IMG/VR virus record: IMGVR_UViG_2663762839_000001
Location: 1 to 11,683 of that record
Reading direction: 5' to 3' (one strand)
Origin: a virus
Lineage: Duplodnaviria > Heunggongvirae > Uroviricota > Caudoviricetes
DNA: 11,683 nucleotides
Below are positions 1 to 7,047 of the stretch, piece after piece. A program made the translations under genes and the position numbers. The notes under the pieces were generated by a model. That model did no database searches, was not told where the DNA came from, and saw nothing but the letters and a program-made list of their open reading frames with translations. Each line of letters opens with the position of its first letter. The stretch's first letter is position 1.

Positions 1-80
1 CCCCCATATCTTTTTCCGCCCCTGAAATTTGGTTGTTATTCATACAGCATATCAGGCGGTAACGCTCTCCCTTTAACCCA

Positions 81-112
81 CTTATTGTATGATAGTGCTA
101 TCCCACAATAAG
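81..112 (+). promoter_or_regulatory. Putative operator/promoter: perfect 8-bp inverted repeat CTTATTGT (81-88) / ACAATAAG (105-112) with a TATGAT -10-like hexamer (88-93) between the arms, upstream of CDS 126..485
   Basis: Inverted repeat and hexamer read directly from sequence; AGGAAT Shine-Dalgarno-like at 111-116, 9 nt before ATG 126. No -35 element is convincing. Confidence 0.35.
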
Positions 113-125
113 GAATCAGCCAGCC

Positions 126-485
126 ATGAGAATGACCAGCCGCAAAAAAGAGATACTTAGCTACTTTGAACCGGATAACCTCGAATGGGTGACTGGTGAG
201 ATTGGTGCGCCGCCGTTCGATGTGTCGGGTGTGGCCTACCTGCTTCATGGCATGGTGTCGTTCGATAAGCGTCACCAGCTCGAATCAACCCGGCGCACAC
301 TGGAAAGCATGGTTGCTGGTGGACTGCTTGAGCGGGTGACAGTGTATGAATCGCGCCAGATACGGCGCGGCGGTGAGACTAACGCAACGGTCGTGCGTTA
401 CGGTTTACCCGGTCATTGTGCTGTTATGCGCGATACTGGCGGCGCTGATAACGCAATATCAGGTGAATACATGCGGGTCAGTTAA
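126..485 (+). CDS. Hypothetical protein, 119 aa, possible small DNA-binding protein
   Basis: ATG start preceded by AGGAAT; uninterrupted ORF with E. coli-like codon usage; TAA stop at 483-485. Its 3' end overlaps the convergent minus-strand gene by 8 nt. No family recognised. Confidence 0.55.
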   Translation: MRMTSRKKEILSYFEPDNLEWVTGEIGAPPFDVSGVAYLLHGMVSFDKRHQLESTRRTLESMVAGGLLERVTVYESRQIRRGGETNATVVRYGLPGHCAVMRDTGGADNAISGEYMRVS

Positions 486-1020
486 TAGCCTGCAATCTGT
501 CGTTGATGCGGCTCAGGTCGTAAACCCGGCGTTCAATATCCAGCATCAGGAAATTGTGGATCTCGGCCTGCTCAGGATTATCAGACTCTCTGGCCTGTAA
601 TAGCAATTCATTGTAACCATGCAAGCCGCCTGAGTTTTCCGCCGGGGTGGTGCCTTTCCCACGCAGGCAGCTAATGGGCTGATTACTCGTATCGTGTGTT
701 TGCTTCTCCAGCACAATGACGCAATCCCACCAGTCGCCAAAGTCATACGTGTAAACCAGCTTGTCACCCTCATTCTGGAGCGCCGCCCATAGTGGCGTGA
801 TTGCCGCGTTACCCATGCTTTCATCCTCACCCCATACGCGATACTCGCTACCTGGATCACCTTTACGCCCTTTCTCGAACATATACAGGTGTTCGTCATT
901 CCAGCCAAAAGCTAACTGGATCACGGCATGAAGTTTACTAAAGGGGATTTGCTCTGGAACCAGCACACGCCGCCATATAGGTGGTTTGCTGTCTCGGATG
1001 GTTATCTTTAGCTGGTACAT
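478..1020 (-). CDS. PRiA4b ORF-3-like family protein, 180 aa
   Basis: ATG at 1020-1018 with AGGAT 5 nt upstream. Translation contains YTYDFGDWWDCVIVLEK, which I recall as the signature of the plasmid pRiA4b ORF-3-like family (PF07929). Recollection only, not a search result. Confidence 0.6.
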   Translation of the reverse strand: MYQLKITIRDSKPPIWRRVLVPEQIPFSKLHAVIQLAFGWNDEHLYMFEKGRKGDPGSEYRVWGEDESMGNAAITPLWAALQNEGDKLVYTYDFGDWWDCVIVLEKQTHDTSNQPISCLRGKGTTPAENSGGLHGYNELLLQARESDNPEQAEIHNFLMLDIERRVYDLSRINDRLQAIN

Positions 1021-1140
1021 GCAAATCCTGAATAAATGCGAATCGGAAGGATAACGATACTGACGTACTCACAATTCTGTAAAGGTGAATAAAGGAAATT
1101 TGCTTAATACGCATAAGTTACATGTGGAATAATCCCATAT

Positions 1141-1326
1141 CTACCTGCGCGGCGCTGGCTTCTTCCACTGGTAGGCAGGTGCTCGCATCATTTCGCGGAA
1201 CCTGTCGCGCCGGGCTATATCGGCATTAACTGAGCGTTCTATCTCCCGTTGATCTGCCTGTGTAAGCTGGTGGCCTCCGTGCTCAAGTTTGGCGATGGTC
1301 AATAAGGCTATTTCGCGTGGTGTCAT
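1141..1326 (-). CDS. Small hypothetical protein, 61 aa, basic C-terminus
   Basis: ATG at 1326-1324 with AGAGGG Shine-Dalgarno upstream; uninterrupted ORF; basic tail KKPAPRR. Function unknown. Confidence 0.5.
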   Translation of the reverse strand: MTPREIALLTIAKLEHGGHQLTQADQREIERSVNADIARRDRFREMMRAPAYQWKKPAPRR

Positions 1327-1604
1327 ACGTCATACCCTCTGGAAGGATGAAACACGCCCGGATTAAATTTCATTTTTCGCGGGTATGAAAAAACGATGGG
1401 GCGGGCAGTCCCGGACAGTCAGGGCTGTAGAGATTTGACTACCCCCTCCCGGTGATAGTTTATTGCTTGATGTGGACGGCTTGCTATATTGGCGGCGAAT
1501 GCAAATTGTCGCAGAAGTCTATCCCGTTCTATGACGCCCTGTGTGGTTGTGGTGCGAATCGCCCGCGTCACGCCGTTGATTTTAGGCTGCGCTCGGAACG
1601 AACA

Positions 1605-1955
1605 TCACGGCGCAGAAGTGTACCAACCGAATCTTGTTAACCCGGCATCGCAGCGCTCACGATTAAGCACACGTGGCGGGTTTTCTCTGGTCATCAACTC
1701 AAGCAAGGCATTGCCTCCCTGCATCTCCAGTCGGTATTGCCTATCGGTAGTGGTAATGGCATCCGGCAATAACTTTATGGCGGCCTGGCTAAAGTCTCGC
1801 GGTGCGCCGTAAAATTGCGCATCAACAATATGAACCACATCGCCGTTAATCGTTGTCCGATAACGGTCTGGCTGTATGGTAAAGCCCCCACAATGGATAG
1901 CAGATAGTGCCGGTGCCGATGAGATCAGGACGGCTGCCAGAATGTATGGCTTCAT
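1605..1955 (-). CDS. Exported (periplasmic) hypothetical protein, 116 aa, N-terminal signal peptide
   Basis: N-terminus MKPYILAAVLISSAPALSA has a hydrophobic core and an AxA-type cleavage site; two Cys residues in the mature part. Its ATG overlaps the stop of the upstream metallopeptidase gene (ATGA at 1952-1955). Confidence 0.65.
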   Translation of the reverse strand: MKPYILAAVLISSAPALSAIHCGGFTIQPDRYRTTINGDVVHIVDAQFYGAPRDFSQAAIKLLPDAITTTDRQYRLEMQGGNALLELMTRENPPRVLNRERCDAGLTRFGWYTSAP

Positions 1956-2596
1956 TCTTCACCCACCAATTCATCCAGTTCAGCCAGCGTCATAGGCTTT
2001 GGTACAGGCTTGTCAATATCACCCATAATGCGCTGGAAGTTTCTGGCAGGCATATGGTTACGGTTCTCCAGTATTTTCGCCAGCGCGATAACATCCCACC
2101 ATTTCAGGGCAATCAGCGCCTCAGCACGGGAAAGGGATATTCTCTGTATATCAGCATCCTCTCCACCAGCCACCCGGTATACCTCTGATAAATCACGAAC
2201 ATTTTTCATGTCTGCTTTCCCGGACGTTTCCATCAGTGCGTTAATATCATCCCCCGTATAGCGTGATTGCGCGACGATACCAGCCAGAGAGATAACCATA
2301 TCCCGGCATACCTGGTCTATCAGACGTAACCTGGTGTCATCATTCGAGAGGGTGTAAGACTTAACCTCAGCCACATTCCGTGGATAGTTGCCGTGCTGCC
2401 ATACCGCTACAGCTCCACATTCATCAACATCTCCGCTAAGGTAGGTTTTTGCCACTCGGTTATTACCCGATAACGCAATTTCTACCTCCTGTATGCCGAA
2501 AAACCATGCGGCTATCGCATGACCTGCTTCATGTATTGCAAGATGTCTGGGCCAGCGATAGCTGCCGAACTCAATAATGATGGGTTGCGTACTCAT
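1952..2596 (-). CDS. Putative zinc metallopeptidase (HExxH; HEAGH motif near the N-terminus), about 214 aa
   Basis: HEAGHAIAAW motif read from the translation. Start placed at ATG 2596-2594 with GAGGGAAG Shine-Dalgarno upstream, which avoids overlapping the ssb stop; the ORF track's longer version starts at 2653. No signal peptide. Confidence 0.6.
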   Translation of the reverse strand: MSTQPIIIEFGSYRWPRHLAIHEAGHAIAAWFFGIQEVEIALSGNNRVAKTYLSGDVDECGAVAVWQHGNYPRNVAEVKSYTLSNDDTRLRLIDQVCRDMVISLAGIVAQSRYTGDDINALMETSGKADMKNVRDLSEVYRVAGGEDADIQRISLSRAEALIALKWWDVIALAKILENRNHMPARNFQRIMGDIDKPVPKPMTLAELDELVGEE

Positions 2597-2606
2597 ATCT
2601 TCCCTC

Positions 2607-3068
2607 TCAGAATGGCGTTTCATCGTCGAATGGTGGGCGTTGGTCAAAATCATCAGGGGTATTATATAACTCCCATCCCGGCGCGGATTGTGTTGTGTGG
2701 CCCCTGCTGGCTCCGCTTGCTTTGACTGATTCGGCCCGCTTCCCGCCGGGGCGTACCGTTCTGGCGCTGATCACGCTGTCGGCTACTACCTGATAACCTT
2801 GCTGTGTACCGCCATCCTTGCCCGTCCACTGATTGATCTGCATCGCTCCGGCAACACTGACTAAATCGCCTTTAACGTGTCCTGCCAGTGCGTCGGCCTG
2901 TTTGCCGAATGCCACCACGCCCAGCCAGAAAGTAACCTCTCCGCCCTCTGCTGCATGGCAGGGCAGTGCCACCGCTAACCGTCCCATTGCCATGCTTGTA
3001 CCGTTTGCTGTGGTACGGGTCTGGGGATCTGCCACCAGCCGCCCGTATGCTGAAATTTGTGCTGTCAT
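2607..3068 (-). CDS. ssb: Single-stranded DNA-binding protein (SSB), 153 aa
   Basis: OB-fold SSB pattern (LVADPQTRTT..NG..MAMGRLAV...FWLGVVAFGKQAD...GDLVSVAGAMQINQWTGKDGG) and acidic C-terminal tip ending DDETPF, comparable to E. coli SSB DDDIPF. GAGGAA Shine-Dalgarno; ATGA overlap with the upstream gene at 3065-3068. Confidence 0.85.
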   Translation of the reverse strand: MTAQISAYGRLVADPQTRTTANGTSMAMGRLAVALPCHAAEGGEVTFWLGVVAFGKQADALAGHVKGDLVSVAGAMQINQWTGKDGGTQQGYQVVADSVISARTVRPGGKRAESVKASGASRGHTTQSAPGWELYNTPDDFDQRPPFDDETPF

Positions 3069-3367
3069 AGATATTTCCTCATGTAGTCACTACCTCCGGG
3101 GATAATTTTCATTTCTTCCCTTAAAGGCCACTGCTCCGCCATTGCTGCGGTCGAGTGATTCCCGTCATCACGTCCGGCCTGTGCTGCCGTCCAGTGTGTT
3201 GCATATTCTGTAAATCCAATTTCTGCTGGCTGCCTCATCCAGTGGGCGATCATCCTCAAGGTCATTTGCAGGCTTTGGGTGTCGCCCTGTAATGCGCGTT
3301 TGTCAGTAAACCCCTTCAATGCTTCACGCTCCTGATAGGTCATTTTCTGGCTGGTTTCTGTATTCAT
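3065..3367 (-). CDS. Hypothetical protein, 100 aa, first gene of the ssb operon
   Basis: ATG at 3367-3365 with AAGGTGG upstream; uninterrupted ORF; stop overlaps the ssb start. No recognisable family. Confidence 0.5.
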   Translation of the reverse strand: MNTETSQKMTYQEREALKGFTDKRALQGDTQSLQMTLRMIAHWMRQPAEIGFTEYATHWTAAQAGRDDGNHSTAAMAEQWPLREEMKIIPGGSDYMRKYL

Positions 3368-3420
3368 TGCCCACCTTCGTTATAAGCTACCCCCCCCATA
3401 GAATCTTTTTGGGGGTGTAA

Positions 3421-3582
3421 TATCCCTACCAATCCCTACTAACTGTCTCAGGCCACGAATGGCAAGGCTTTCAGACTGGTAGGCATTCAATTTTGTTGCC
3501 CTACATAACCCTACTTATCCCTACTAAATCACTTCAACGGCATTTTGCTGCCTGTTTTATTTGGTAGGGATATGTAGGGATA
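3421..3582. repeat. Iteron cluster: seven copies of the core CCCTAC (TATCCCTAC in the best copies), five direct and two inverted, phased at 10 bp; candidate operator array or replication origin
   Basis: Direct cores at 3424-3429, 3434-3439, 3499-3504, 3509-3514, 3519-3524; inverted GTAGGG at 3564-3569 and 3574-3579. Within each group the spacing is exactly 10 bp. CTTATCCCTAC (3514-3524) and GTAGGGATAAG (3574-3584) form an 11-bp perfect inverted repeat. Confidence 0.6.
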
Positions 3583-4142
3583 AGTGCCGCCGTAAAAGTT
3601 TCAATCACATCACTCTGCCCGCTCTCCACACCGTAAGCACGGGGCATGAACTCCTCAGCCTTCTCGTTATAGCCAACGTTGGTCTGCGCTCTGCCGTTAA
3701 TGCTTCTCGTCAGGTAGCTGGCTCGGTACTCTTTTGCTGCTGATTTTATGGCGCGTGAAAACTTATTGACGGAAAGCGGTTTACCCAAACCGTGATACTC
3801 CATAAACGCCAGATAAAGATGATAAAGATATGTCCTCGGCTCTGGCTGGCCTGCCCATGTACCTCCGCCCATCATCATGCCTTTGGGTTCGTTCATGAAA
3901 AAAAGCGCCGCACACATATCGACAACCGGATCCGTGCCGCGTTTAACCTCTAGCGCCTCCTGCGAATCGCGCTGCTCTAGTAATAGTGCTTTTGCTTTGT
4001 TCTGGTCGGCAAAGGTGGTTAGCAGGTGGCGGATAATCACCGGGATTTCTCGCCTGATTTTTGCTGTTAAATCCGGGTCTTTGTCTGCGTCTGATACCGG
4101 GTTATTAAACGGGAATACCCGTAGCGTGACATTGTCGTTCAT
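3534..4142 (-). CDS. P4-family primase/helicase C-terminal-region-like protein, 202 aa; either a stand-alone domain protein or a 5'-truncated remnant
   Basis: Motifs LRVFPF..DPDLTAKIRREIPVIIRHLL and RTYLYHLYLAFMEYHGLGKPLSVNKFSRAI resemble, from memory, the conserved C-terminal region of phage/plasmid P4-type primases. ATG overlaps the upstream stop (ATGA at 4139-4142) with GAAGGTG upstream. The 3' end runs through two inverted iteron copies. Confidence 0.45.
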   Translation of the reverse strand: MNDNVTLRVFPFNNPVSDADKDPDLTAKIRREIPVIIRHLLTTFADQNKAKALLLEQRDSQEALEVKRGTDPVVDMCAALFFMNEPKGMMMGGGTWAGQPEPRTYLYHLYLAFMEYHGLGKPLSVNKFSRAIKSAAKEYRASYLTRSINGRAQTNVGYNEKAEEFMPRAYGVESGQSDVIETFTAALIPTYPYQIKQAAKCR

Positions 4143-5263
4143 TGCACTGGCACCTTCAGAGGGATCACCGGCACAAAGCCGGGATGCGTAATGGCATTAC
4201 GCCGGATAATGTCCGCGTCACGCGCCGCGTTATCAAACCAGGTCGCCGCCAGCACCAGCGCGGGTAAAACCTCATCCGGTGTGCGCTGAATGATCCGTGC
4301 AGACTGTTCAAGGCGCGTGTTGATATCCGCATTCAGATCTGCTTTCACCCGGCGCAGCGCCAGAAACAGCGCATCGCTGGTTGTACGGGACAACTCCTTA
4401 TCAATTGCCGTATTCAGTGTGTCGCGAATGTCAGTCAGTTCTTCCCACGTCGGCAGGTCAACCGTGTTTTTCACCGCCGGTGCATTGTTCAGTGCCGGAT
4501 GCGTGACGGAAGGCCAGCAAGTGCTCTGCGCAGGTGTTGTTGCCTGCCCCACTGCGGCATTCTGCATCACCGCGGAAGTTGTTAGCGCAGGCACCCGCAT
4601 CCCGGGAGGCGCATCCTTAAACGAGACCGTAATCTCGCCTTCAGCCTTCTTCGGCGCAGCCTGAACTATCTGATACGGATTGTATCCCTGAGCAGAAACG
4701 CCTGTACCGTACGCCCCATAGCCACCGCCCCCCCACTGAGTCGCATTGGCTGCAACCACCGTGTCGCTGGCACCATCAGTAAACCATTCAATAATCGGCT
4801 TCAGCTTGTCCCACATATCCTGAAACCACTTAACAACCGGCCCCCAGTTATTGATCACCATCCCCAGCGGCGACCAGGCAAAAACTTTCTTAAGGAGTTC
4901 CCAGCCAGCCTCAAAATAAGGACCAATGGTTTCCCAGAGTTTCTTAAAATAAGGTCCGACAACATCCCAGTTAGTGATAATTAATCCCGCAGCCAGGGCT
5001 ATCGCCGTCGCAATCATGCCAATCGGCGTCATCGACATGATCCTGCTGACAATACTGATGGCACCGCCAACGCCCATCAATCCCAGTTTCAGAATCGCAA
5101 GACCGGCAGCAAGCCCGACGACGCCGCGAATAACCCGGGGATTTTCATCCGCAAACTTCGTGAATTTTTCCCCCAACTCCCCCAGCCATTGCGTGATATT
5201 TTTGGCGTCACCAGAAAATGCGCCGCCAATAGCCGCAAGGCCGTTAGTTGCGGTCCCCGTCAT
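4139..5263 (-). CDS. Tail tape-measure-like protein (paralog or fragment), 374 aa
   Basis: Hydrophobic, Trp-rich segments (MTPIGMIATAIALAAGLIITNWD, WELLKKVFAWSPLGMVINNWGPVVKWFQDMW) parallel the central region of the 7937..9925 tape measure (MSPVGLITALAAGIALLWEDY). Start sits about 40 nt downstream of an intrinsic terminator; Shine-Dalgarno spacing is short. Confidence 0.5.
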   Translation of the reverse strand: MTGTATNGLAAIGGAFSGDAKNITQWLGELGEKFTKFADENPRVIRGVVGLAAGLAILKLGLMGVGGAISIVSRIMSMTPIGMIATAIALAAGLIITNWDVVGPYFKKLWETIGPYFEAGWELLKKVFAWSPLGMVINNWGPVVKWFQDMWDKLKPIIEWFTDGASDTVVAANATQWGGGGYGAYGTGVSAQGYNPYQIVQAAPKKAEGEITVSFKDAPPGMRVPALTTSAVMQNAAVGQATTPAQSTCWPSVTHPALNNAPAVKNTVDLPTWEELTDIRDTLNTAIDKELSRTTSDALFLALRRVKADLNADINTRLEQSARIIQRTPDEVLPALVLAATWFDNAARDADIIRRNAITHPGFVPVIPLKVPVQ

Positions 5264-5304
5264 TGCCTCTGGTCAGATACTGCCATTTAGTAGGCTCCAG
5301 AAAG

Positions 5305-5329
5305 CAAAAAACCCGCCGGGTGGCGGGTT
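5305..5329 (-). terminator. Rho-independent terminator (minus strand) downstream of the 79-aa membrane protein gene
   Basis: Minus-strand RNA reads AACCCGCC-ACCC-GGCGGGTT followed by TTTTGCTTT: an 8-bp GC-rich stem, 4-nt loop and U-tract, read directly from sequence. Confidence 0.7.
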
Positions 5330-5345
5330 CATTATTGAAGTTTCA

Positions 5346-5585
5346 TTACTGCTTGTTTGCTTCTAACGCTTCAGCTATTCGGCGAAGATACTCATTGTTT
5401 TTAAATGAAACCATGATGCACTCAAAGAATATTCGGCAAAATACAGCACATAACAAAAGCACTAAAGCGCCAGCAGCCTTCCCATTAACAAACGTTATAA
5501 TGGCGGCAACAACCAGAAGTAACATTGTGATGCCATACAGAACGTTGATGATTTTTGGAGTTATTAATTTATCAAATCCGAACAT
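5346..5585 (-). CDS. Small integral membrane protein, 79 aa, two predicted TM helices (moron gene)
   Basis: ATG with AAGGAA upstream; two hydrophobic stretches (IINVLYGITMLLLVVAAIITFV and AAGALVLLLCAVFCRIFFECIMVSF); about 38% GC by hand count over 5341-5590 versus about 55% in a flanking tail gene; own -10 element and terminator. N-terminal FDKLITPKIINVLY is tentatively reminiscent of DUF4282-type small membrane proteins. Confidence 0.65.
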   Translation of the reverse strand: MFGFDKLITPKIINVLYGITMLLLVVAAIITFVNGKAAGALVLLLCAVFCRIFFECIMVSFKNNEYLRRIAEALEANKQ

Positions 5586-5614
5586 GCGACAAATTCCTTA
5601 TCGTGAAAGTAGAA

Positions 5615-5650
5615 GTATCACATTATAATTACGAGTGATTAATCAACAAT
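5615..5650 (-). promoter_or_regulatory. Putative sigma70 promoter for the 79-aa membrane protein gene
   Basis: Minus-strand perfect TATAAT (plus 5627-5622) with a TTGTTG -35-like hexamer (5649-5644) 16 nt upstream; sits at the 3' end of the upstream gene and the intergenic spacer. Confidence 0.4.
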
Positions 5651-5980
5651 CTTTTTGCATGGAAAGGAACCGATGATTTTCGGCGCATCCATGCTGTTCT
5701 GCAGCAGTTGGACATTCAGGAATCGCGTTTCGGTACCAGGGCGACGAATGTATTCAAAGCCGTAGTTGTTACCGTCTTTGGCAGGCATAAGCCCCATGTC
5801 TACTTTCAAACCATTGGTACCCAGTTCGGTGATTTTTTGAGAGGTAACTTTTTCACCGTTGATTGTCGATAACTCGCCCTGGTTTGCAACCATAGTGTAG
5901 CCACCGCATTTAACCGTGAAGCCATCCGCCCACGCGCTGCACGCAGAAAAGACAGCTAACAGAAAAATAATACCCCTCAT
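5639..5980 (-). CDS. Exported protein, 113 aa, signal peptide with possible lipobox (FSAC) or signal peptidase I site (AWA-D)
   Basis: N-terminus MRGIIFLLAVFSACSAWADG; two further Cys (VKCGG, FPCKK). ATG with AAGGGGA upstream, only 3 nt after the stop of the 353-aa tail gene. Confidence 0.65.
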   Translation of the reverse strand: MRGIIFLLAVFSACSAWADGFTVKCGGYTMVANQGELSTINGEKVTSQKITELGTNGLKVDMGLMPAKDGNNYGFEYIRRPGTETRFLNVQLLQNSMDAPKIIGSFPCKKIVD

Positions 5981-5983
5981 TGC

Positions 5984-7045
5984 TCATCCCCTTTGCAAAG
6001 CCGATTGCGTATACAGATCCGCCGCGCCACGCGCTTCGCACATCATATCCATGTACCACGCCTGGCCCCTTGTATCGCCAGTGTACATAATCCCGCGCAC
6101 AATATAAACGCCATCTGTTGCGATGCTGGCAGGTTGTGCTGTTGTGCCGCTGAGCGTGATATTACCGTCCGTGTTCTGGTCGGTGATCTTCCCACCAGCC
6201 ATCGCAATATCGTTGTTCGACAACGCGGTGCGATATACGGAAGCCTGATCCAGTTGAATGAGCCCATTAACCCGGATGTTCGGATTAATAAGCGCGCGGA
6301 CGTTTACGCCGTTGCCGATAGTCTGCTGCGGCATGCCGATAAGCCCGGTGGCGCTGTTGAGCACAATCGCTTCATGAACATATTCGTTATTCGCCACCAT
6401 CTGGCGTTGACCGTCCACAAATTGCCATGTTGCGCCACATTGTCCGGCCACGTTATCCATAAGATGCCGTGTCATGCCGAACAGCACCCGCCCTCGAGGG
6501 TATACGGTAGCAGGCATTTCAGGCGTCAGTCCTTCGGTCGCGCCTTTGGCCTCAAAGTCTTTCATCAGCGCACGGTTCACATCAGCGACCGTGTAACCGG
6601 CAGCCAGCGTCTGTGAGGTTATACTGGTGGCAAATGCCAGATCCGTATCTGCTGCCTGAATCAGGACATAGGAATCAATAGGGCTGTCTTTTCCTGTGAC
6701 CGAGTAGCGAATTTCTCCGCTGAAAATCAGCCCGTAGTTGCGGCCATCACTCTGGCCCACATCTGCCGCGTCGACTTCGCGCACGGTCCCGACGTCGCTT
6801 GCCGCCACCTCCGGCGCGATACCGTCGTAACCGGCAATCAGCCGCACTTTCGAAAATTCCTTCCCGGTGATTCGGTTCACAGTATCTGCCAAGAGGTTAT
6901 AAATTTTGATAGTCCCTACCCGGGACGCGCTGCTGATGTTGAACCAGTCGATCGTAAAGGTGACTTTGAAATCACTTAGCCCAATTCCCTGACCGTTCCC
7001 GTCCACAAGCTGCACCTCTAAATGTCTCATCCAGTTCTGTGACAT
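5984..7045 (-). CDS. Phage tail-tip/baseplate-associated structural protein, 353 aa (family not assigned)
   Basis: Long ORF with GGAG Shine-Dalgarno, coupled (2-nt gap) to the upstream 100-aa gene, third gene after the tape measure; beta-rich, Gly/Asn/Thr-rich composition typical of tail proteins. Function inferred from position only. Confidence 0.55.
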   Translation of the reverse strand: MSQNWMRHLEVQLVDGNGQGIGLSDFKVTFTIDWFNISSASRVGTIKIYNLLADTVNRITGKEFSKVRLIAGYDGIAPEVAASDVGTVREVDAADVGQSDGRNYGLIFSGEIRYSVTGKDSPIDSYVLIQAADTDLAFATSITSQTLAAGYTVADVNRALMKDFEAKGATEGLTPEMPATVYPRGRVLFGMTRHLMDNVAGQCGATWQFVDGQRQMVANNEYVHEAIVLNSATGLIGMPQQTIGNGVNVRALINPNIRVNGLIQLDQASVYRTALSNNDIAMAGGKITDQNTDGNITLSGTTAQPASIATDGVYIVRGIMYTGDTRGQAWYMDMMCEARGAADLYTQSALQRG

Positions 7046-7047
7046 GC

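What the first reader, a model, noticed from the sequence alone, without database searches (positions are those of the whole stretch)
81..1020. PRiA4b-ORF3-like gene convergent with a 119-aa gene that has a palindromic operator
The 180-aa protein carries a YTYDFGDWW motif typical of the poorly characterised pRiA4b ORF-3-like family. It converges on a 119-aa plus-strand gene with 8 nt of 3' overlap, and that gene's promoter region contains a perfect 8-bp inverted repeat flanking a -10-like hexamer and the ribosome-binding site. The layout suggests a repressor-controlled accessory pair of unknown function at the edge of the element.
Basis: partly seen in the sequence, partly recalled or inferred. 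Interest (0 to 1): 0.5.

Follow-up and report, generated by a model that had tools for sequence, protein, structure and literature searches.

The report
Satellite-island end: regulator gene plus cargo gene
The two converging genes sit at the far end of a phage-parasitic island of E. coli: one is a conserved small DNA-binding-type protein with its own strongly conserved palindromic site, the other (the pRiA4b ORF-3-like gene) is optional cargo dropped in next to it, so they are neighbours rather than a dedicated pair.

Summary
The 180-aa protein is a clear PF07929 member. The two genes overlap by 8 nt. The inverted repeat is larger than reported: two 15-nt arms at 81-95 and 98-112.

The "repressor-controlled pair" reading holds only in part. 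Window 1-4117 is the att-proximal end of an EcCIMP1-type phage-inducible chromosomal island (PICI) inserted at tRNA-Thr.

The 119-aa gene and the 61-aa gene (1141-1326) are convergent backbone genes. The space between them is a variable slot:
- empty in several species;
- filled by the PRiA4 gene in some;
- filled elsewhere by unrelated cargo, including a Panacea-domain protein, an M78 peptidase, CHAD and an IS.

A close PRiA4 homologue also occurs without the 119-aa gene.

The palindrome belongs to the 119-aa gene. In 24 loci, homology begins exactly at its left arm. The arms are conserved and the centre varies. There is no base-pair covariation and no -35 element.

The 119-aa protein models as a winged helix, at low confidence. 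The most likely reading is an autoregulated island regulator next to an independent cargo gene whose biochemical function remains unknown (beta-grasp-like fold).

This is ordinary architecture, with a modestly interesting undescribed regulator-site module.

The parts
81..112 (.). 32-bp dyad: two half-sites of consensus CTTAWTGTAKGATA (81-94, and 99-112 on the bottom strand) around a variable 3-4 nt centre. Predicted operator of the 119-aa gene.
   Evidence: unique, 0.07 expected by chance. (arms conserved in 24 loci, centre variable, homology starts at C81). (no covariation, so not supported as a hairpin).
87..92 (+). -10-like hexamer TATGAT inside the left half-site.
   Evidence: TAKGAT is kept in 21 of 22 loci; the O157 allele has TATGAG. 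No -35 partner in any locus and not called by the promoter scan. Promoter function is inferred only.
110..114 (+). Shine-Dalgarno-like AAGGA, overlapping the end of the right half-site, 11 nt before the ATG.
   Evidence: conserved in the alignment.
126..485 (+). 119-aa backbone gene: predicted winged-helix protein, and the terminal, inward-reading gene of the island.
478..1020 (-). 180-aa PRiA4_ORF3 (MM3350-like) protein: optional cargo gene.
486..1077 (-). Extent of the inserted PRiA4 cassette relative to loci that lack it. The right boundary is about 1077 against E. coli ET479 and about 1133 against Shimwellia L009.
   Evidence: Alignment; sequences.
1054..1083 (-). Promoter-like site TTTACA-18-TATCGT upstream of the PRiA4 start. 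AGGA lies 7 nt before the ATG at 1020.
   Evidence: 9/12 match, not more frequent than in shuffles, so weak evidence. No terminator-like site between the 61-aa gene and the PRiA4 gene, so read-through from the island operon is equally possible.
1141..1326 (-). 61-aa backbone gene, last conserved gene of the island's long leftward operon. It is the convergent partner of the 119-aa gene where the slot is empty.
   Evidence: phrog_7271, function unknown.
1353..1450 (.). Context: non-coding stretch 80-86% identical to the unannotated genome termini of phages SfII and ST64B. Probable cos-type packaging site of the island.
   Evidence: matches at SfII 23-119 and at ST64B 40062-40149 of 40149.

Best explanation
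Window 1-4117 is the att-proximal end of an EcCIMP1-type phage-inducible chromosomal island (PICI, a phage satellite) that inserts at tRNA-Thr. In intact relatives the order is int, AlpA-like HTH, AntA/B, Icd-like, P4-type primase, SSB, 61-aa gene, PRiA4 gene, 119-aa gene, att.

(1) The 119-aa gene is a backbone gene that reads inward from the island end. Its product is predicted to be a small winged-helix DNA-binding protein. As a dimer it would bind the conserved 32-bp dyad at 81-112. That dyad covers the -10-like hexamer and the likely transcription start, and touches the ribosome-binding site, so the protein would repress its own synthesis.

(2) The PRiA4_ORF3 gene is a cassette of about 600-650 bp. 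It lies in the short gap between the converging stop codons of the 119-aa and 61-aa genes. The 8-nt overlap is the insertion junction. The gene is expressed either from its own weak promoter-like site or as the last gene of the island's helper-induced operon.

(3) The slot is a cargo site. Other islands carry a Panacea-domain protein, an M78 peptidase module, CHAD, an IS, or nothing there. The PRiA4 protein is therefore most likely an accessory factor that benefits the mobile element or its host in conflicts with phages or other elements. Its fold, a beta-grasp core plus a helical bundle with no enzyme relatives, suggests it works by binding a partner rather than by catalysis.

Shown: gene content, family membership, slot variability, conservation of the dyad, island position.
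Inferred: DNA binding by the 119-aa protein, autorepression, and any role of the PRiA4 protein.
For: Island identity and position: same module in HeN100, YZ22MPE6 and MP1/EcCIMP1; att core copy 201 nt upstream of the ATG. The literature treats int + AlpA + PerC + primase as the Gram-negative PICI gene set, and shows EcCIMP1 to be mobilised by phage Kapi1 (PMC11773190, PMC6092414).

Slot variability:
- (empty, PRiA4, or other cargo);
- (Panacea domain, M78/CapP-like peptidase, CHAD);
- (E. coli ET479 without PRiA4);
- (Serratia PRiA4 without the 119-aa gene);
- (about 150 E. coli genomes with divergent 119-aa alleles and no PRiA4).

Dyad.
Winged-helix fold.
Both genes under purifying selection.
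PRiA4 fold. The family recurs as a passenger on transposons (PMC3942029).
Against: - The 119-aa model has only pLDDT 57, so the winged-helix assignment is tentative. There is no sequence match to any DNA-binding family.
- No -35 element exists in any locus, and the O157 allele lacks the -7 T. The promoter part of the operator-promoter picture is therefore unproven.
- Nothing links the protein to the dyad except constant co-inheritance.
- In E. coli the close 119-aa allele and the PRiA4 gene co-occur in about 371-376 of 378 genomes. In Klebsiella sp. L013 both have diverged in parallel (72% and 74%) while keeping the same 8-nt overlap. Long-term linkage therefore exists in one lineage.
- No PADLOC hit for the PRiA4 protein. 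It is rare in phages: 4 of 50,697 records.
Confidence: 0.6

Rival explanations
1. One reading: the two genes form a dedicated two-component accessory system (regulator plus effector, or toxin-antitoxin-like), controlled through the palindrome.
For: - Near-complete co-occurrence within E. coli for the close allele.
- The same overlapping arrangement is kept in Klebsiella sp. L013 at 72-74% protein identity.
- No terminator lies between the converging genes, so each transcript could interfere with the other.
Against: - Fourteen species-level loci and E. coli ET479 carry the 119-aa gene and palindrome without PRiA4.
- PRiA4 occurs without the 119-aa gene in Serratia and in all distant contexts examined.
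- The 119-aa family has 77 representatives at 50% identity, whereas PF07929 homologues turn up in unrelated phyla and contexts.
- The palindrome is single-copy and lies only at the 119-aa start.
- The genes are convergent, not an operon.
- The E. coli co-occurrence can be explained by inheritance of one island variant.
Confidence: 0.15
2. The palindrome is not a transcriptional operator. It would instead be part of the island's recombination or packaging machinery, for example an arm-type or accessory-protein site of attP, given that it lies about 100 bp from the att core at the module boundary.
For: - Homology among loci starts exactly at the left arm. The region between it and the att core differs among islands.
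- No -35 element.
- A cos-like site lies nearby at 1353-1450.
Against: - The dyad travels with the 119-aa gene across at least ten different flank types, and therefore different att arms. It does not travel with the arm.
- Its fixed distance to the ATG and its overlap with the ribosome-binding site fit gene control.
- Arm-type sites of tyrosine integrases are usually direct repeats (general knowledge).
Confidence: 0.12
3. The palindrome acts as an RNA hairpin in the 119-aa leader that hides the ribosome-binding site.
For: A 13/15 stem would include AAGG of the Shine-Dalgarno sequence.
Against: - No covariation: score 0.071 against 0.064 in shuffles, with 170 of 500 shuffles as high.
- The pair of columns 5-28 is broken in 7 of 17 distinct sequences, and pairs 9-24 and 10-23 are mostly unpaired.
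- The changes swap CTTATTGT and CTTAATGT independently on either arm, as expected for a protein half-site.
- No Rfam match.
- If transcription starts after the -10-like hexamer, the left arm is not in the RNA at all.
Confidence: 0.08

Closest known systems
EcCIMP1, the PICI of E. coli MP1 (Pick, Stadel and Raivio 2025, PMC11773190)
   Same: It carries this very module at the same place. The PRiA4 and 61-aa proteins are identical, the 119-aa protein is 98% identical, and the att core copy lies 201 nt upstream. The insertion site is tRNA-Thr next to proA.
   Different: - The paper does not discuss these three genes.
- The window's island differs between the 61-aa gene and the primase.
- In the window the primase gene is cut at about 4117-4142 and joined to phage tail genes.
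Pfam PF07929 PRiA4_ORF3 / MM3350-like proteins (PDB 2I1S)
   Different: No member has a demonstrated function. Known contexts are plasmid pRiA4b, IS1096, and ISAzba1-group transposons (PMC3942029); here the carrier is a phage satellite.
Accessory and defence gene hotspots of phage satellites (P4-like hotspots, Rousset et al. 2022, PMC9122126; accessory genes at the 3' end of PICIs, PMC6092414)
   Same: A fixed site between conserved backbone genes holds interchangeable cargo, including toxin-antitoxin-type and peptidase modules.
   Different: - The slot here is small (0-2 kb).
- None of its cargo scored as a complete known defence system.
- The PRiA4 protein has no PADLOC hit.
- The island is a PICI type, not P4.
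Small autoregulated winged-helix repressors (ArsR, MarR, PadR types)
   Same: The predicted fold matches these families, and a two-half-site palindrome overlaps the gene's own start region.
   Different: - No sequence membership in any such family.
- No ligand-sensing features identified.
- Binding is untested.
Rpp proteins of E. coli PICIs (PMC6739421) and RgdR (PMC3378721)
   Same: Small PICI-encoded proteins. Rpp has a winged-helix DNA-binding domain, and RgdR is a regulator.
   Different: - Rpp is 144-153 aa, mostly helical, with a MerR-type N-terminal domain. The 119-aa profile finds no PDB chain at all, so it does not find RppC 6HLK.
- RgdR is 99 aa, pI 10, with RGD at residues 20-22. 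The 119-aa protein has none of these features.
- EcCICFT073, which encodes RppA, lacks all three genes of this module.

Membership tests
Pfam PF07929 PRiA4_ORF3 (MM3350-like) | Score above the family's gathering threshold over the full domain | tested here: met
   146.2 bits against 26.6; residues 2-170 on profile positions 3-167 of 173.
Pfam PF07929 PRiA4_ORF3 (MM3350-like) | Fold of the solved member 2I1S | tested here: met
Gram-negative PICI (phage-inducible chromosomal island) | Integrase at one end next to a specific att site; AlpA-type regulator; primase/replication module; genes mostly in one direction | tested here: inconclusive
   Met in the intact relatives L037 and L038: tRNA-Thr, int, HTH, P4 primase, all leftward. 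The window itself keeps only the last 202 residues of the primase and has no int.
Gram-negative PICI (phage-inducible chromosomal island) | Helper-phage-dependent excision and transfer | not testable with these tools
   Shown experimentally for EcCIMP1, which holds the same module (PMC11773190). Not known for the window's truncated copy.
Two-gene system (toxin-antitoxin or regulator-effector pair) | Partners co-occur across independent lineages | tested here: not met
   8 species-level loci have PRiA4 and 14 with readable downstream sequence lack it. Both genes are also found alone.
Two-gene system (toxin-antitoxin or regulator-effector pair) | Co-transcription or a shared control region | tested here: not met
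   The genes are convergent. The dyad lies only upstream of the 119-aa gene and is single-copy.
Known anti-phage defence systems (PADLOC-DB 2.0) | HMM match to a component of a catalogued system | tested here: not met
   No hit at E up to 0.1 for the 180-aa, 119-aa or 61-aa proteins.
Winged-helix transcription factors (ArsR/MarR/PadR-type) | Sequence membership in a curated family | tested here: not met
   No Pfam or NCBIfam hit, and no PDB hit with single sequence or profile.
Winged-helix transcription factors (ArsR/MarR/PadR-type) | H1-S1-H2-H3-S2-S3 winged-helix fold | tested here: inconclusive
Winged-helix transcription factors (ArsR/MarR/PadR-type) | Sequence-specific binding to a dyad operator | not testable with these tools
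   Only indirect evidence: the dyad is conserved and always co-inherited with the gene.
Rpp (PICI packaging-redirection proteins) | Homology to RppA/B/C (PDB 6HLK); MerR-type N-terminal domain plus coiled-coil helix | tested here: not met
   No PDB sequence hit at E up to 10. The predicted secondary structure differs (against the description).

The most novel reading that the evidence does not exclude
The PRiA4_ORF3 protein would be a single-gene phage-interference determinant carried as satellite cargo. One candidate role is the unexplained EcCIMP1-dependent superinfection immunity against helper phage Kapi1, since EcCIMP1 encodes the identical protein. This would give PF07929 its first function. 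Separately, the 119-aa protein and its dyad would be a new regulator-operator module conserved across this group of enterobacterial satellites.
Probability: 0.13. Interest if true: 0.6.

Novelty: new member of a known kind. Interest (0 to 1): 0.3.

Why it matters
PF07929 is a family with a solved structure and no known function, found across several phyla, and it keeps turning up as a passenger on mobile elements. This work places an identical copy in a defined cargo slot of an experimentally tractable satellite, EcCIMP1 in E. coli MP1. That satellite has an unexplained superinfection-immunity phenotype, so a direct knockout test is available.

The 119-aa gene with its sharply bounded, strongly conserved dyad is an undescribed backbone module of these islands. 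It also gives a practical anchor for cataloguing satellite cargo. Beyond that, the locus is ordinary: an accessory gene next to a small regulator at the end of a known kind of island.

Tried and rejected
- **Rpp.** I tested whether the 119-aa protein is Rpp, the packaging-redirection protein of E. coli PICIs. Rejected: no sequence match to any PDB chain, which includes 6HLK, and a different predicted architecture.
- **RgdR.** I tested whether it is RgdR, said to be encoded by all analysed E. coli PICIs. Rejected on size, pI and the absent RGD motif. EcCICFT073 lacks this module altogether.
- **Divergent PRiA4 allele in L030.** An apparent 61%-identical PRiA4 allele next to a 97%-identical 119-aa gene first looked like cassette exchange. 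The alignment showed it is the same allele with two compensating frameshifts, so it was not used.
- **RNA hairpin.** No covariation and no Rfam family.
- **LexA, CRP or P2/P4 late-promoter-type sites.** By inspection the TGT-N16-ACA spacing fits none of them. This rests on my own knowledge and was not tested with a tool.
- **Sigma-70 promoter.** No -35 in any locus.
- **Defence-system and phage-family libraries.** PADLOC, PHROGs and NCBIfam gave nothing for the 180-aa and 119-aa proteins; the 61-aa protein matched only phrog_7271, of unknown function.
- **Viral structure library.** Nothing meaningful for the PRiA4 fold.
- **Conserved partner among distant PRiA4 homologues.** None found.
- **Literature.** Searches for PRiA4_ORF3, PF07929 and MM3350 found only passing mentions.

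Full report
**1. The observation**

The coordinates and features are correct.
- ORF 126-485 (+) encodes 119 aa.
- ORF 478-1020 (-) encodes 180 aa with the motif LVYTYDFGDWWD.
- The two ORFs share 478-485.

The 180-aa protein is a full-length member of Pfam PF07929: E 1.1e-42, 146 bits against a cut-off of 26.6. It matches the one solved member, 2I1S, at E 3e-21.

The 8-bp repeat at 81-88 / 105-112 is the outer part of a larger dyad. Its arms are 81-95 and 98-112, 13/15 complementary. No other inverted repeat of that quality exists in the window, and 0.07 are expected per dinucleotide-preserving shuffle. The half-site pattern occurs nowhere else in the window or in a 31-kb relative.

**2. Where the region sits**

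Window 1-1400 is 100% identical to the chromosome of E. coli HeN100 and occurs in 384 of 5426 complete E. coli genomes. Window 1400-4117 continues at 99.6% identity in E. coli YZ22MPE6.

In YZ22MPE6 the gene order is: tRNA-Thr, integrase, HTH regulator, AntA/B, DUF4222, Icd-like, P4-family primase, a 100-aa gene, SSB, two further genes, the 61-aa gene, the PRiA4 gene, the 119-aa gene. After that come chromosomal genes.

A copy of the tRNA 3' end, AATGGTGCGATAATAGGA, lies 201 nt upstream of the 119-aa ATG. That is about 76 nt before window base 1. The 119-aa gene is therefore the terminal gene of the island and reads inward.

The same module is found in E. coli MP1 at the same site: identical PRiA4 and 61-aa proteins, and a 98%-identical 119-aa protein. 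That island is EcCIMP1. It is described as a functional PICI, excised and transferred with helper phage Kapi1. It contributes to superinfection immunity by an unidentified mechanism (PMC11773190). The paper does not discuss these three genes. The set int + AlpA + PerC + primase is what the literature treats as the Gram-negative PICI pattern (PMC6092414).

**3. Are the two genes a pair?**

I scanned one genome per species for relatives of the 119-aa protein. This gave 27 loci. I then searched each for the PRiA4 and 61-aa proteins.

The 119-aa and 61-aa genes recur as convergent neighbours. What lies between them varies.

| Slot content | Loci |
|---|---|
| Empty (6-30 bp) | L009, L018, L020, L023 |
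| PRiA4 gene only (662 bp) | L002, L003, L005-L008, plus the E. coli locus L001 |
| PRiA4 plus a Panacea-domain protein and a partner gene | L004 |
| PRiA4 plus an IS256-type transposase | L013 |
| M78 peptidase (CapP/ImmA-like) with a small membrane protein | L011 |
| CHAD-domain protein | L025 |
| Other genes | L014, L017, L019, L021, L024 |

A YafO-type toxin lies downstream of the 119-aa gene in L016, where no 61-aa gene was detected.

Further points against an obligate pair:
- The alignment of filled and empty loci shows the cassette begins right at the 119-aa stop codon.
- E. coli ET479 has a 95%-identical 119-aa gene with the palindrome and a 61-aa gene, but no PRiA4 gene.
- About 150 further E. 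coli genomes, including O157:H7, carry divergent 119-aa alleles and no PRiA4.
- A 77%-identical PRiA4 gene in Serratia is followed by Phd/Fic and has no 119-aa gene.
- Four distant homologues sit alone in unrelated contexts.

The one piece of evidence for lasting linkage is Klebsiella sp. L013. There both genes have diverged to 72-74% and keep the same 8-nt overlap. The near-perfect co-occurrence of the close alleles within E. coli (about 371-376 of 378) can be explained by inheritance of one island variant.

**4. The palindrome**

Aligning the 125 nt upstream of the ATG from 24 loci shows that similarity begins exactly at C81, the first base of the left arm. Upstream of it there are at least ten unrelated flank types. 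This fits that stretch being the variable att arm.

Within the block:
- the two arms are nearly invariant (consensus CTTAWTGTAKGATA);
- the central 3-4 nt vary freely;
- the spacing is constant.

A formal pair count finds no covariation. The score is 0.071 against 0.064 in shuffles. The pair of columns 5-28 is broken in 7 of 17 distinct sequences, because either arm can read CTTATTGT or CTTAATGT. This pattern fits two protein half-sites better than a hairpin. No Rfam family matches.

The -10-like hexamer keeps T, A and the final T in 21 of 22 loci. No locus has a -35-like hexamer, and the scan called no promoter. "Operator" is therefore better supported than "promoter".

**5. The 119-aa protein**

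It belongs to a narrow family: 539 clusters at 90% identity, 77 representatives at 50%, essentially all in Enterobacterales. It is under purifying selection, with dN/dS 0.06-0.19. It has no hit in Pfam, NCBIfam, PADLOC, PHROGs or PDB sequences.

It is not Rpp or RgdR, the two small PICI proteins with known roles.

**6. The PRiA4 protein**

It is under purifying selection, with dN/dS 0.04-0.12. It is rare in phage genomes, at 4 of 50,697 records, and absent from PADLOC. The literature holds only passing mentions. One paper notes it as a passenger on ISAzba1-group transposons (PMC3942029).

**7. Conclusion**

The locus is best read as two independent units placed side by side at the end of a phage satellite.
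- The first is a backbone regulator gene with its own dyad site, probably autorepressed.
- The second is an optional cargo gene of unknown biochemical function, sitting in a small cargo slot.

The architecture is well supported. DNA binding and autoregulation by the 119-aa protein are plausible but untested. A role for the PRiA4 protein in phage or mobile-element conflict rests only on its location.

Noticed in passing
window 1353-1450: This non-coding stretch between the 61-aa gene and the next gene is 80-86% identical to unannotated DNA at the very ends of phage genomes: SfII positions 23-119, and ST64B positions 40062-40149 of 40149. It is probably the island's cos-type packaging site, copied from an SfII/ST64B-like helper.
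   Followed up: partly
window 3534-4142 and 4139-5263: Only the last 202 residues of the P4-type primase remain. Identity to intact islands stops at about 4117. The next ORF (374 aa) runs into a phage tail/baseplate module at 5268-10930. No complete E. coli genome has this junction, so the island copy in the window is truncated or the contig is chimeric.
   Followed up: partly
window 1605-1955 and 1952-2653: A 116-aa protein with a signal-peptide-like N-terminus overlaps the end of a 233-aa protein carrying an HEAGH zinc-protease-type motif (LAIHEAGHAIAAW). Neither has a Pfam or PADLOC hit. The pair recurs in L026. It may be another accessory module.
   Followed up: no
L001 10960-14444 (E. coli HeN100): Just beyond the island end lies an AAA ATPase + S8 peptidase operon, followed by HigA, IS elements and a TrbJ fragment. 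In MP1 the neighbour is a Vat/MarR island with an integrase remnant. Different elements therefore lie next to this island end in different strains.
   Followed up: no
L030 5001-5540: The PRiA4 gene on this metagenome contig carries two compensating frameshifts. The middle third is read in another frame. It is either a pseudogene or a sequencing error.
   Followed up: yes
L011, L012, L014, L015, L019, L024 (downstream of the 119-aa gene): A conserved 143-170-aa plus-strand gene (MSKSLSVTFRVPAEL...) follows the 119-aa gene in one sub-branch of these islands. It has no Pfam hit.
   Followed up: no
L039 3364-3566 (E. coli ET479): The slot holds about 200 bp of non-coding DNA with an inverted repeat (GAGGCCC...GGGCCTC). 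This is followed by sequence matching window 1078-1140, so part of the PRiA4 upstream region, including its -35-like TTTACA, is backbone rather than cassette.
   Followed up: partly
L038 10940-11122 (EcCIMP1): EcCIMP1 carries a second, 62%-identical copy of the 61-aa gene about 0.8 kb from the first.
   Followed up: no
window 11464-11670: A minus-strand ORF resembles the C-terminal part of an IS3-family transposase (...WVDWYNNRRLLGRLGHTPPAEAE...), at the far end of the window (identification from my own knowledge).
   Followed up: no
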